From assembly GCA_016211095.1 (NCBI GenBank), contig JACQSW010000090.1, forward strand, positions 1 through 29,148: DNA of 29,148 bases, given 5' to 3'. Positions 14,009 to 17,721 of the stretch are shown here, piece by piece. This stretch comes from Candidatus Woesearchaeota archaeon. GTDB taxonomy: Archaea; Nanobdellota; Nanobdellia; SCGC-AAA011-G17; GW2011-AR17. Position 1 is the first letter of the stretch. The number at the start of each line of letters is the position of its first letter. The notes under the pieces were generated by a model. The model made no database searches and had not been told where the DNA came from. It saw only the letters and a program-made list of their open reading frames with translations. Both the position numbers and the translations under genes were made by a program.

Positions 14009-16996
14009 TTATTTGAGTTTTAATCCAACCCCTTCAAGTATTTTTTTAGCTCTGTCTTCAGGTATTTCGTCTTGAGTTATTTGGCAAAGCATGCTCAAGT
14101 TTTTTCTTAAACCAATCGGTGTTCCTTCAGGAGTTTCTATTGGGCAATTATGGGTGATGAAGCCATTTGCTATAAATGAATGAGTATTTTCCGCTGTAGT
14201 GAAATCCCTCACATCATCCAAATCCTCGACTTCTTTACACACTATTTTTTCCCATACCGCCCCAGAAGCCCCCAGTTTAGACTCTTTTAGCCATACATCA
14301 TAAGGCAGTAACATGTTTTGAGAAAGCCTTGTATTTTCATATTTGGAAGGCTCAAAAAGCCACCCCTGCACAACCCTATAATTAAGATTTAAAATAGCCG
14401 AAATTTTCTTAGGCTTAACGCCGCCTTTATACAATTTTTTTGCTTCATTTTTTAGGTTGATTCTCTTGTTGACGGCGAAATCGTGTAGCCTTAGCCACTC
14501 CCCAATATAATTTGCTTCCCTCTCTTTTTGTATGCAATACCTGTATCCTATCCTCGTTAATAGGGTTTTAATATTCTTTTGAGATTTTCCAAAAATAATT
14601 TCGCATTTTAGCATAGTTGAGCCATCTTTTCTTAGATAGTCTTCCTTAAGGCGTATATTTTTGATAACGAATCCAAACTCGCCGAATAATTTCTTAATGT
14701 CTTGGGAAAATTTAATGATATTCTCTTTCATATCGGCTCTTTTGTGGAATATTAGGCTGTCAATATGCAGTTTAGAACCGGATTTTCTGTCTATTCTTTT
14801 AGTAAATCTTGGCTTAGGGCCATCTCCGCCAAGCAAAGCGGCTAAAAATTCCCTTTTCGCAGACAGGCTTGCTTTAAGGACCCAACTAGGAAGTTCGACA
14901 TTAACATCAGTTTTTTTACCAACAGGTGCGCCACTACAAACTAGCAAAGCATGTAAGGCCCCACCTTTACTTAACATAAAAGTTTTATAATTCACTATCT
15001 TATCCCCTATTTTTATTCTTGTGTGTTTTTCCATTATTTTCGAAGGCTCAAAGCCCAATAATCTTATATCGTTGGCTATTGCTTCAGCATCTTCTTTAGT
15101 TCCGCAATAAAACTCTAAATTATTTTTTCCGCAATGCCCATCAGAAAAGATGTGCCCTAATAACCTAGCTACTATTTCAATCTTATAGTTGTTTATTGTA
15201 AAAGGGATAAGTTCGTTGGTTTTCAATTGCTTAATGTAATGCTTGAATCTGTTTGGATAATTTTTTACAAGATTCTCTTCGCTTACAATAGCCAAGCCAA
15301 GATTATTTGTTGGAAGCTGAGGCAGTTCGGTACCGTCTAGAGCAGGGTAAACAGCAACCTTATCCCCTGCTTTTAGCTTTGAGGCATCGGTCCATCCGTT
15401 TTCTGTATAGAAAGGATGGTCTTCGGTGGCGGTTACCTCTCTACCACTTTCAGAGATTAATTTGTAAACTTTTTTGCCCATAAGTTTTGGATTTGAGGTA
15501 TAGTAATTAGATATTGAGGAAGACCTTAAACTTTTAGTGGCACTATCAAAACTGCTAACCTTGTGATGACTCCAGCAATTCTGCAATAATTCTAAGGTTC
15601 GATGAGAATATTTATCAGCTAATAACACGCGAGTGTCTTTCTTTAAGCATAACCGCCCCCAATGGGTCGGGTGCAGTTCCCTTGCTTCGAAGTTTTCTTG
15701 TGAAGCTGATAGCATTGAGACAACTCTTTGCAGGTGTGAGGTAGTTGCTAGGAAGTTTATTCTATCAATATTTTGGCTTATTCCTTTTCTTCCACCAACC
15801 CATGACCCTGTTGCCATTGCGCTTTTTATTCGGGAACTGAGTAGTTTGTCCCTTATGATTATCCTTACTGATTGGAATTTGCCTCTTTTGACTAGCCTTT
15901 GGAAGTTGTATATTATGTCGTTTACTAGCAATCTCATGTTTACTCGTAGCAAGTCTGCAAGTAAGTCACCGCTGAGTTTCAGTTTTTTGTTTTTGTAATG
16001 GTCCTTGTCAGGTATGGTCACATTCCTTTTGGAGACCCTTAACATTTTTTTCATTACCTTGCATAAATTGTAAGCCTTGTATAATCTTTCTTTTGGGGTG
16101 ATGCCTATGTGTGGAAGCAGATAGAGGTCAAGTTGTTCAAGTGTTTTTTCTTCTTTAAACTCTTTTGGCTGCAGCATGCCTGCTTTTTTAGATAAGAACT
16201 CAACTGCTTGATTTACTGTCCTTAAGTCTATAGAATTGTAAAGGTTTATGTAGACTTCGTCGTATTCTTCGCCTTCTTCGCAGACCAGATTCATTATTTC
16301 TTGATCTGTTGTTAGCCCCAAGGCTTTTATTACTGCGATTATGGGTATCTTTTTGAATCTAGTGAATGAGATGTAGATTATGCCATCCTTCATTTGTTCT
16401 ATCAAATGGGGTATGCTGTATGAACCTTTTTGTGAGAATAATTTTGCTGTGTAAGGGCTCGGCCCAGTCAAGTTTTTTTGTATAAAAACTTTATTTGTTA
16501 CTAAGTCTTCTACAGTTATTAATACCCTTTCGTTTCCGTTAAGAATAAAATATCCTCCTGGATCAGTTGGGTCTTCTCCGTATTTTATAAGTTCCTCTTC
16601 GTTTAATTCGCTTAGGTGGCACAATTTTGATTTAAGCATGACAGGTAGTTTGCCTATTTGTGCGTTAAAGGATTCTCGCGCTACACCGTCAGAGTATGTA
16701 CTTACGTCAAGTTGCATTGGCGCAGAATAAGTTAACTTTCTTAGTCTCGCTTCTATAGGGAAAATCTTTTTTGTTGAGCCATCAGCTTCAATTAGCTGCG
16801 GCTTGTTTATTGTTATATTATCAAATCTTATTTTGAAGTCTTGCATCTCTGGAGGGATTATTGTTGGAACAATATCTCCTACTTCGTTTACGATTTGTTG
16901 TACTTCCCTGCTTATGAATTTGTTAAATGATTTGATGTTGGACTCTATGAAGGAGTGCTCTTCAAAGTATTTTTTAACTAATAATTCTTTAGTCAT
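14009..16996 (-). CDS. rpoB2: RNA polymerase subunit B'' (Rpo2N) precursor with intein (494-aa extein after splicing)
   Basis: EARLRKLTYSAP, DPGGYFILNGNERV and FEARELHPTHWGRL|CPIETPEG, which is rejoined after removing residues 450-950. Confidence 0.97.
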   Translation of the reverse strand: MTKELLVKKYFEEHSFIESNIKSFNKFISREVQQIVNEVGDIVPTIIPPEMQDFKIRFDNITINKPQLIEADGSTKKIFPIEARLRKLTYSAPMQLDVSTYSDGVARESFNAQIGKLPVMLKSKLCHLSELNEEELIKYGEDPTDPGGYFILNGNERVLITVEDLVTNKVFIQKNLTGPSPYTAKLFSQKGSYSIPHLIEQMKDGIIYISFTRFKKIPIIAVIKALGLTTDQEIMNLVCEEGEEYDEVYINLYNSIDLRTVNQAVEFLSKKAGMLQPKEFKEEKTLEQLDLYLLPHIGITPKERLYKAYNLCKVMKKMLRVSKRNVTIPDKDHYKNKKLKLSGDLLADLLRVNMRLLVNDIIYNFQRLVKRGKFQSVRIIIRDKLLSSRIKSAMATGSWVGGRKGISQNIDRINFLATTSHLQRVVSMLSASQENFEARELHPTHWGRLCLKKDTRVLLADKYSHRTLELLQNCWSHHKVSSFDSATKSLRSSSISNYYTSNPKLMGKKVYKLISESGREVTATEDHPFYTENGWTDASKLKAGDKVAVYPALDGTELPQLPTNNLGLAIVSEENLVKNYPNRFKHYIKQLKTNELIPFTINNYKIEIVARLLGHIFSDGHCGKNNLEFYCGTKEDAEAIANDIRLLGFEPSKIMEKHTRIKIGDKIVNYKTFMLSKGGALHALLVCSGAPVGKKTDVNVELPSWVLKASLSAKREFLAALLGGDGPKPRFTKRIDRKSGSKLHIDSLIFHKRADMKENIIKFSQDIKKLFGEFGFVIKNIRLKEDYLRKDGSTMLKCEIIFGKSQKNIKTLLTRIGYRYCIQKEREANYIGEWLRLHDFAVNKRINLKNEAKKLYKGGVKPKKISAILNLNYRVVQGWLFEPSKYENTRLSQNMLLPYDVWLKESKLGASGAVWEKIVCKEVEDLDDVRDFTTAENTHSFIANGFITHNCPIETPEGTPIGLRKNLSMLCQITQDEIPEDRAKKILEGVGLKLK
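14147..15649 (-). mobile_element. Intein with LAGLIDADG homing endonuclease, 501 aa, in RpoB''
   Basis: Begins CLKKDTRVLL (Cys1) and ends FIANGFITHN before extein Cys+1. Block B is TATEDHPFYT. Endonuclease motifs are RLLGHIFSDG and FLAALLGGDG. Removal restores GRLCPIETPEG. Confidence 0.96.
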
Positions 16997-17222
16997 TTAG
17001 AACCACCCTAAAGAAATCGGATTTGCCTGTTGTTGGGCTTATTCGCGTTATTTTTATTACGTCGCCAGGATTAACGTTTAATTCTTTTATTGCTGGATCG
17101 CTCTTCAAAATTTTTGGCAATTGCCTTAATGCAACGTTATACTTTTCTAATACTTCTTGGATTTCTTTTTCGTCCAGTTTTGTGTGTTTTGGCACCAAAA
17201 TGTGTTCTTGTTCTTTTCCCAT
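16989..17222 (-). CDS. rpoH: RNA polymerase subunit H (Rpo5), 77 aa
   Basis: HILVPKH, QLPKILKSDPA and GDVIKITRISPTTG. Start set to ATG 17222 because the longer ORF runs into tRNA-Lys. Confidence 0.96.
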   Translation of the reverse strand: MGKEQEHILVPKHTKLDEKEIQEVLEKYNVALRQLPKILKSDPAIKELNVNPGDVIKITRISPTTGKSDFFRVVLND

Positions 17223-17251: not shown

Positions 17252-17374
17252 AGGACCGGACGGGATTTGAACCCGCGACCACCTGATATCTTCTTTTTTT
17301 GAAGTTAAAAGTTTCACCTTAACAACTTTTTTTTCGTTGTTAACAGGTGCTCTACCAGGCTGAGCTACCGGTCC
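17252..17374 (-). tRNA. tRNA-Lys(TTT) with two introns: 31 nt at 30/31 (17313-17343) and 18 nt at 37/38 (17288-17305)
   Basis: Exons join to GGACCGG TA GCTC AGCCTGGTA GAGC A CCTGA CTTTTAA TCAGG TGGTC GCGGG TTCAAAT CCCGT CCGGTCC, a complete cloverleaf. Both introns show a BHB-type central helix (CACC/GGTG; CTTT/GAAG). No encoded CCA. Confidence 0.88.
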
Positions 17375-17384
17375 GCGTTTGAAA

Positions 17385-17458
17385 CGCCCTGACCGGGATT
17401 CGAACCCGGGTCGTAGCCTCGACAGGGCTACATGATAGGCCAGCTACACCATCAGGGC
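17385..17458 (-). tRNA. tRNA-Asp(GTC), intronless
   Basis: GCCCTGA/TCAGGGC acceptor stem, TAGCC-CTGTCGA-GGCTA anticodon arm, CCGGG-TTCGAAT-CCCGG T arm, discriminator G. Confidence 0.96.
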
Positions 17459-17721
17459 TTGGATAAGAGGCGACCTGAAATTATTTTTGTTTGTGATACT
17501 GCTATTTTTGAATATAAATCTGTTGTGGGAAGTGTAACTTTTTTTAAACTTTGCGCTTAGAACTTGTTTGATTTTGGAGCATGGTAGGATAATCATTTTT
17601 TCTCGGTTTCGATCTTTTTCCGAATGTAACGGCTATCCCTCCATTTTTTGGTTGATTTAAACCTAGCTAGAAGGATTTTACCCTCTTTTTGGAAAATTTA
17701 CTTATTTATAAGCTTTGTGGT

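What the first reader, a model, noticed from the sequence alone, without database searches (positions are those of the whole stretch)
17252..17374. Cryptic tRNA-Lys(UUU) split into three exons by two introns, with a 7-nt middle exon
Seen: intron 1 (31 nt, 17343-17313, non-canonical position 30/31) has a CACC/GGTG central helix and an inner TTAACAAC/GTTGTTAA hairpin. Its outer helix forms only by re-pairing the D arm (AGAG) with the anticodon loop (CTTT). Exon 2 is ACTTTTA (17312-17306). Intron 2 (18 nt, position 37/38) has a CTTT/GAAG helix but no clear inner stem. Both motifs use the same CTTT bases, so they are mutually exclusive and splicing must be ordered. The base after the acceptor stem is T, atypical for Lys. 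Established: multi-intron tRNAs occur in Thermoproteales and ARMAN-type archaea and need broad-specificity endonucleases. Standard scans can miss or mis-assign them.
Basis: partly seen in the sequence, partly recalled or inferred. Interest (0 to 1): 0.65.

Follow-up and report, generated by a model that had tools for sequence, protein, structure and literature searches.

The report
Two-intron lysine tRNA, DPANN archaeon
The only gene found for the lysine tRNA that reads AAA codons in this tiny uncultured archaeon is cut into three pieces by two short protein-spliced introns, leaving the anticodon on a 7-base piece; it is real and shared by about a third of related genomes, but it is another example of a known archaeal gene type.

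Summary
Confirmed. Window 17374-17252 (- strand) is tRNA-Lys(UUU) with BHB-type introns at 30/31 (31 nt) and 37/38 (18 nt) around a 7-nt anticodon exon. Spliced in silico it gives a clean 74-nt tRNA; ARAGORN misses or mislabels the gene. The host is a Nanobdellota ('Woesearchaeota') MAG. Related Lys(UUU) genes carry both introns, either one or none. Intron 1's central helix is 4/4 in 40 of 40 sequences, with compensatory changes. Of 112 genomes of the order, 46 have the 30/31 intron, and none of these has a second Lys(UUU) gene without it. Folding favours intron 1 first (38/38). T73 also occurs in intronless orthologues, but is unusual beside this genome's class II LysRS. The one open point is the endonuclease: a single-subunit (alpha4-like) EndA without the CSL, ASL or N. 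equitans loop insertions credited with cutting relaxed motifs. Multi-intron tRNAs and nested, ordered splicing are published, and this scan already found the same layout in other genomes. New member of a known kind.

The parts
17344..17374 (-). tRNA-Lys(UUU) exon 1 (positions 1-30): 5' acceptor strand, D arm, 5' anticodon-stem strand; bases 25-28 (CACC) form intron 1's central helix
17313..17343 (-). Intron 1, position 30/31, 31 nt; relaxed BHL motif (central helix with GGTG, 3+1 loop, 7-bp inner hairpin with an A-rich loop)
   Evidence: same position in 40 related sequences, 12-67 nt long, helix 4/4 in all
17306..17312 (-). Exon 2, 7 nt (positions 31-37), carries the UUU anticodon
   Evidence: ACTTTTA in 33, GCTTTTA in 4, CCTTTTA in 1 of 38 two-intron genes, with base 31 always pairing with base 39
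17288..17305 (-). Intron 2, canonical position 37/38, 18 nt; hBH-type (central helix CTTT/GAAG, no inner helix, competing CTTC/GAAG self-hairpin)
   Evidence: 46 related introns, 12-48 nt, helix 4/4 in 39
17252..17287 (-). Exon 3 (positions 38-73): 3' anticodon-stem strand, variable loop, T arm, 3' acceptor strand, T73; CCA not encoded
17385..17458 (-). Intronless tRNA-Asp(GUC), 10 nt upstream; probably co-transcribed
   Evidence: the Asp-Lys pair recurs in relatives
17511..17518 (-). TATA-like box (TTTATATT) about 53 nt upstream of tRNA-Asp; candidate promoter (inference)
   Evidence: read from sequence; not tested beyond a sigma70-type scan at chance level
16989..17222 (-). rpoH, first gene of the RNA polymerase operon, ATG 30 nt after the tRNA (the listed GTG start at 17282 lies inside the tRNA and is spurious)

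Best explanation
A functional, single-copy archaeal tRNA-Lys(UUU) gene with two protein-spliced introns of the BHB family. Inferred: it is transcribed with tRNA-Asp and probably the rpo operon. Computed, not measured: the precursor first folds with the D and anticodon arms rearranged, so bases 25-28 pair with the end of intron 1 and the relaxed 30/31 motif is presented. Inferred from the family's known chemistry: EndA cuts after base 30 and before base 31, and RtcB ligates. The anticodon stem then forms without a break and gives the 37/38 intron its outer helix. EndA and RtcB remove that intron and yield the 74-nt tRNA that reads AAA, the commonest codon (7.7%). The likely enzyme is the genome's single 201-aa EndA acting as a homotetramer (inferred).
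For: Spliced product called Lys(ttt) for this gene and all 61 distinct orthologues. All four intron states occur among orthologues, mostly beside tRNA-Asp or rpoB: 38 both, 8 only 37/38, 2 only 30/31, 13 none. Intron 1 helix 4/4 in 40/40 (shuffle mean 0.005), with coordinated changes on both sides (CACC/GGTG, CATC/GATG, CACT/AGTG). Mature anticodon stem 5/5 in all 61, with compensation across the splice junctions (pair 31-39 A-T, G-C or C-G; pair 30-40 G-C or C-G). In 112 genomes, 46 have the 30/31 intron, 48 lack it and none has both forms. No other Lys(UUU) in G000; only Lys(CUU) on C14. Folding: the intron 1 motif costs +1.8 kcal/mol in the precursor versus +9.8 for intron 2 with pair 31-39, falling to +1.4 once intron 1 is gone; same ranking in 38/38. 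EndA and RtcB present. Nested, ordered splicing is reported for archaeal multi-intron pre-tRNAs, and in C. merolae the 37/38 intron is removed last (PMC3978253).
Against: No RNA data. The genome is 85% complete, so a second copy is excluded only by analogy with complete relatives. If intron 2 needs only its 4-bp central helix, its cost (+2.2) is close to intron 1's (+1.8) in this gene, and intron 1 wins in 32 of 38, not 38. Energies are for unmodified RNA at 37 C without protein. T73 is unique among the 26 class II LysRS genomes compared, and A73 substitutions lower charging by E. coli LysRS (PMC9976931). Loop-less alpha4 enzymes are described as narrow (PMC6379350).
Confidence: 0.9

Rival explanations
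1. Same gene and product, but no fixed order: the enzyme tolerates a missing outer helix, so either intron can go first, and the shared CTTT only prevents simultaneous cutting.
For: Genes with only one of the introns exist, so each can be removed without the other. The outer helix of intron 1 is broken at one pair in 4 sequences. The cost of intron 2's central helix alone is near intron 1's in this gene. HBh' motifs without an outer helix are known substrates of broad enzymes (PMC5829648).
Against: Intron 2's helix is barely populated in the full precursor (probability 0.025 here, median 0.00 over 38) while intron 1's is 0.98 (median 0.74). Most intron 2 motifs lack an inner helix (28 of 46), so without the outer helix they are a bare 4-bp stem.
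Confidence: 0.25
2. One long intron, or another register, giving a different tRNA: Ile(AAU) as ARAGORN calls it, Val(AAC), or a UCA anticodon read from the start of intron 2.
For: ARAGORN calls Ile(aat) with a 51-nt intron. Intron 2 starts with ACTTCAA, a near-repeat of exon 2.
Against: These registers give no BHB central helix and no matching anticodon stem. The AAT and TCA stretches lie in intron sequence that is not conserved, whereas exon 2 is invariant apart from base 31. Intronless orthologues at the same locus are Lys(UUU).
Confidence: 0.02
3. A decaying pseudogene or poorly charged copy (T73, long A runs), with the working Lys(UUU) gene in the unassembled part of the genome.
For: Genome 85% complete. 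T73 with a class II LysRS is not seen in 25 relatives (22 A, 3 G).
Against: All stems and both splice helices are perfect. No genome with the 30/31 intron has a second copy without it, including genomes rated 100% complete. A/T runs fill many other introns of this genome.
Confidence: 0.05

Closest known systems
Multiple-intron tRNA genes of Thermoproteales (Sugahara 2007/2008; Tocchini-Valentini 2009; as reviewed in PMC4090602, PMC4033280, PMC3978253)
   Same: Two or three short BHB-family introns per gene, canonical plus non-canonical positions, relaxed motifs, nested motifs that form only after another intron is removed.
   Different: Different phylum (Nanobdellota/DPANN); the endonuclease is single-subunit and lacks the CSL, whereas Thermoproteales use an (alpha-beta)2 enzyme with CSL. 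I could not read the primary papers, so whether this exact Lys(UUU) 30/31+37/38 pair is listed there is untested.
Disrupted tRNA genes of DPANN: ARMAN-2 (epsilon2 EndA; PMC3239211) and alpha4-type, L3-bearing DPANN lineages (PMC5829648)
   Same: DPANN host, cryptic tRNAs missed by standard tools, non-canonical introns. Kaneta 2018 already links alpha4-type EndAs in DPANN to more tRNA disruption and included one Woesearchaeote.
   Different: No ASL. The Tyr-His segment here is 9 aa, the M. jannaschii length, against 15 in N. equitans and 14 in ARMAN-2, so there is no L3-length insertion. Whether that paper scored such short loops as L3 could not be seen (figure not held).
M. jannaschii alpha4 EndA (PDB 1A79) and N. 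equitans alpha subunit (PDB 3IEY)
   Same: Catalytic Tyr137/His147/Lys178; acidic L10-type loop as in 1A79; closest by score to 3IEY chain A (E 2.7e-38), then 1A79 (3.4e-32).
   Different: Has Arg171 plus a C-terminal Trp198, the Arg/Trp pair described for broad (alpha-beta)2 and epsilon2 enzymes (PMC12397907); 1A79 aligns Tyr there. No beta subunit found, unlike N. equitans.
Intron-rich tRNA genes of Asgard archaea (bioRxiv 10.64898/2026.10.13.758758)
   Same: Many introns missed by annotators, repeated change across the tree, EndA loops do not explain the load.
   Different: Different lineage; mostly (alpha-beta)2 EndA there.

Membership tests
Archaeal BHB-family (EndA-spliced) tRNA introns | 4-bp central helix between the exon bases 6-3 nt before the 5' cut and the intron bases 6-3 nt before the 3' cut | tested here: met
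   4/4 for both introns; 40/40 and 39/46 in relatives against shuffle rates 0.005 and 0.066
Archaeal BHB-family (EndA-spliced) tRNA introns | Strict hBHBh' (two 3-nt bulges closed by outer and inner helices) | tested here: not met
   Intron 1 is BHL (3+1), intron 2 hBH; across relatives intron 1 is strict in at most 16/40 and intron 2 in 17/46. Relaxed forms are recognised subtypes (PMC5829648), so this excludes only the strict class.
Archaeal BHB-family (EndA-spliced) tRNA introns | Removal restores a standard cloverleaf | tested here: met
   74-nt Lys(ttt); anticodon stem 5/5 in all 61 orthologues
Archaeal BHB-family (EndA-spliced) tRNA introns | EndA and RtcB encoded in the genome | tested here: met
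   PF01974/PF02778 on C49; PF01139 on C36 and C81
Archaeal BHB-family (EndA-spliced) tRNA introns | Cleavage by EndA and mature RNA in vivo | not testable with these tools
   Needs tRNA-seq or an in vitro assay
Nested multi-intron pre-tRNAs (ordered splicing) | The last intron's motif forms only after the other is removed | tested here: inconclusive
   Folding supports it (cost +9.8 to +1.4 kcal/mol; 38/38), but not if a bare central helix suffices; no experiment
alpha4 homotetrameric EndA | One single-unit gene with catalytic triad and acidic L10 loop, no beta subunit | tested here: met
   201 aa, one hit per genome in most relatives including ones rated 100% complete; an N. equitans-type beta scores E 1.8e-14 and should have been seen. 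Tetramer assembly itself not tested.
Broad-specificity EndA with a specific loop (CSL/L1, ASL/L2, N. equitans loop/L3) | Insertion in the N-terminal domain (L1/L2) or between catalytic Tyr and His (L3) | tested here: not met
   N-terminal segment 6-7 aa with no CSL-size insert; Tyr-His segment 9 aa in 27/27, same as M. jannaschii
Group I self-splicing tRNA introns | Several hundred nt with a ribozyme core | tested here: not met
   31 and 18 nt; no Rfam intron hit in the window

The most novel reading that the evidence does not exclude
A widespread Nanobdellota lineage splices relaxed (BHL/hBH) introns at non-canonical sites, in fixed order and in an essential single-copy tRNA, using a homotetrameric EndA with none of the three loop insertions thought to confer broad specificity. 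That would be a further route to broad specificity, perhaps through the Arg/Trp bulge clamp or the nearly invariant RG[VI]KPG[ED]DH active-site loop.
Probability: 0.45. Interest if true: 0.5.

Novelty: new member of a known kind. Interest (0 to 1): 0.3.

Why it matters
Practically, it recovers an essential tRNA that ARAGORN misses or calls Ile, in about a third of the genomes of this order. For RNA biology, the locus is a ready natural series (no intron, 30/31 only, 37/38 only, both) for testing splicing order. It also suggests why 30/31 is an easy site: the outer helix already exists in the intronless tRNA. The point a specialist would care about most is the enzyme. A loop-less single-subunit EndA facing relaxed, non-canonical introns tests the view that broad specificity needs a CSL, ASL or L3 insertion, and can be settled with one recombinant protein.

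Tried and rejected
ARAGORN on the window finds only tRNA-Asp; with intron search it calls Ile(aat), rejected. Alternative registers (Val-AAC, UCA anticodon from the start of intron 2) rejected for lack of a central helix and conservation. The YrlA hit (E 0.08, far below cut-off) is a by-product of two adjacent tRNAs. T73 as a pseudogene sign rejected as sufficient evidence. The D-arm/anticodon-loop outer helix cannot be tested by covariation, since both sides are fixed by tRNA function. The CTTC/GAAG self-hairpin of intron 2 as a designed switch: not evident in most orthologues, so treated as local. The conserved Lys142 of EndA as the specificity residue is weakened: the aligned ARMAN-2 K241 is dispensable (PMC3488258). 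The RpoB' tree did not finish its careful search; the quick tree needs 9 state changes against a shuffled mean of 16.7, with weak backbone support, so gains versus losses are not resolved. The Sugahara 2007 and Tocchini-Valentini 2005/2009 papers are not held and are cited only through reviews. No structure or complex prediction was run: a tetramer would pass by likeness to solved structures and says nothing on specificity. The promoter scan is sigma70-only and at chance level.

Full report
Observation. The minus strand at 17374-17252 holds a tRNA body with a long insert in the anticodon arm (RF00005, 50.5 bits, 58-nt insert). The unspliced gene is missed or called Ile(aat). For shuffled introns the chance of a 4/4 central helix at the required place is 0.0015 and 0.034.

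Host and context. RpoB' relatives at 65-76% identity are records named Ca. Woesearchaeota, Nanoarchaeota or Nanoarchaeia, so the host is a Nanobdellota (DPANN) MAG of 0.93 Mb, 85% complete. The gene lies 10 nt after tRNA-Asp(GUC) and 30 nt before rpoH, at the head of the RNA polymerase operon. The genome is intron-rich: in silico splicing recovers Val(CAC), Val(TAC), Phe(GAA) and Ser(GGA) with D-arm introns, a three-intron Gly(UCC), and several anticodon-loop introns.

Comparative proof of the parse. From related genomes and rpoB-flanking loci I recovered 61 distinct Lys(UUU) sequences: 38 with both introns, 8 with only 37/38, 2 with only 30/31 and 13 with none. Intron 1 varies from 12 to 67 nt and intron 2 from 12 to 48 nt with little sequence conservation, while exon 2 is fixed apart from base 31. 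Intron 1's central helix is 4/4 in 40 of 40 and changes on both sides together (CACC/GGTG 26, CATC/GATG 5, CACT/AGTG 1, wobble forms 8). Intron 2's is 4/4 in 39 of 46. The mature anticodon stem is 5/5 in all 61, with compensation across the splice junctions: pair 31-39 is A-T, G-C or C-G, and pair 30-40 is G-C or C-G. These sequences are kin and not independent, but coordinated changes on both sides of two different helices are hard to get from a wrong parse.

Is it the only copy? No other Lys(UUU) was found in G000; the only other Lys gene is Lys(CUU) on C14. By standard wobble rules CUU cannot read AAA, which is the commonest codon in long ORFs at 7.7%. Two exact patterns over 112 genomes of the order (at least 90% complete, plus G000) found the 30/31 intron in 46 (40 with both introns, 6 with that one alone) and a gene without it in 48 (13 with 37/38 only, 35 intronless). 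No genome had both forms, and 18 matched neither pattern. Within the family, 18 of 22 have it. The states are patchy on a quick RpoB' tree (9 changes; shuffled mean 16.7), which does not resolve gains versus losses.

Motif geometry and order. Intron 1 is a bulge-helix-loop: central helix, a 3+1 internal loop, then 7 bp. Intron 2 has an outer helix and central helix but no inner helix, and carries a competing CTTC/GAAG hairpin. Across relatives most motifs are relaxed (strict in at most 16/40 and 17/46). In the full precursor intron 1's central helix is predicted at probability 0.98 (median 0.74 over 38 genes) and intron 2's at 0.025 (median 0.00). Forcing intron 1's motif costs 1.8 kcal/mol; forcing intron 2's helix with pair 31-39 costs 9.8, dropping to 1.4 after intron 1 is removed; the ranking holds in 38 of 38. 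So intron 1 first, then the canonical intron, is the best model. It matches reviews stating that some archaeal introns are nested so that the last motif forms only after the others are removed, and that 37/38 goes last in C. merolae (PMC3978253). The AGAG/CTTT pairing exists in 12 of 13 intronless genes and is broken at one pair in 4 two-intron sequences, so it is a pre-existing feature, and perhaps the reason position 30/31 tolerates an intron. If intron 2's bare central helix were enough, its cost (2.2) would rival intron 1's here, and intron 1 would win in 32 of 38. I put the fixed order at about 0.7. In relatives, deleting intron 2 lowers intron 1's helix probability from a median 0.74 to 0.05, but not in this gene (0.996).

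The enzyme. G000 has one EndA gene, 201 aa, with both Pfam domains once each, and RtcB. Relatives also show one hit each, including genomes rated 100% complete; an N. equitans-type beta subunit scores E 1.8e-14 against this protein and should have appeared. It keeps Tyr137, His147 and Lys178 and an acidic L10-type loop, so alpha4 is the likely form. It has no CSL/ASL-size insertion, and the Tyr-His segment is 9 aa in 27 of 27 homologues, the M. jannaschii length, against 15 in N. equitans and 14 in ARMAN-2. Published work credits such loops with cutting relaxed motifs and lists M. jannaschii alpha4 as narrow (PMC5829648, PMC6379350). The same NAR paper already reports L3-bearing alpha4 enzymes with disrupted tRNAs in DPANN; I could not see whether it scored short loops like this one as L3. 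The protein does carry Arg171 and a C-terminal Trp198, the pair described for broad enzymes (PMC12397907). A recent Asgard preprint finds that EndA loops do not explain intron load. This mismatch is the one open, testable point; it is inferred from sequence only.

T73. It occurs in 6 of 61 sequences, three of them intronless. The five relatives with T73 and a known synthetase use class I LysRS, where the discriminator matters little, whereas G000 has class II (PMC9976931). Among 25 class II relatives, 22 have A and 3 have G. It may be a mildly suboptimal variant or a consensus error beside a T run; it does not outweigh the evidence for function.

Verdict. A real, almost certainly functional two-intron tRNA-Lys(UUU), common in this DPANN order. 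Multi-intron tRNAs, non-canonical positions, relaxed motifs and nested splicing are all described. Earlier notes of this scan report the same layout in other genomes; they did not set my score. New member of a known kind, interest 0.3. The loop-less alpha4 reading has probability about 0.45 and would merit about 0.5.

Noticed in passing
G000 C19:1051-1204 (+): tRNA-Gly(UCC) with three introns (D arm 22 nt, 37/38 32 nt, T arm 28 nt), each with a 4/4 central helix; splices in silico to a 72-nt Gly(tcc); missed by ARAGORN and below the Rfam cut-off.
   Followed up: partly
G000 C24:8331-8436 (-), C145:1160-1265 (-), C128:7-103 (+), C2:3440-3554 (+): D-arm introns in Val(CAC), Val(TAC), Phe(GAA) and Ser(GGA); the two Val introns are both 33 nt at the same site. 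ARAGORN mislabels three of them as SeC, Ala and Arg.
   Followed up: partly
G000 C33:758-1348 (-): tRNA-Asn(GUU) with a 515-nt intron that looks like a group I intron holding an HNH-like ORF; group I introns are reported in archaea (PMC6125680, abstract only). Not tested.
   Followed up: no
window 14009-16996 (-): RpoB'' (995 aa) carries an intein of about 500 aa at residues ~450-951 (intein N- and C-terminal models).
   Followed up: no
L001:2133-3050 (+): A gene that looks like RNase Z lies divergent to the EndA gene, 53 nt away; not run against a family library.
   Followed up: no
G009, G019, G031: No EndA found in three genomes of one genus that carry the two-intron gene, one rated 100% complete; other members of the genus have it, so probably unassembled.
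   Followed up: partly
family and order of G000: Class I and class II LysRS are patchy and mutually exclusive in the 61 genomes searched (18 versus 36), even within one genus, and T73 in Lys(UUU) goes mostly with class I.
   Followed up: partly
G000 C36:7660-8385 and C81:9242-9391: RtcB matches lie on two contigs and the C36 frame is 645 aa, longer than the matched part; possibly an intein-bearing gene broken by the assembly.
   Followed up: no
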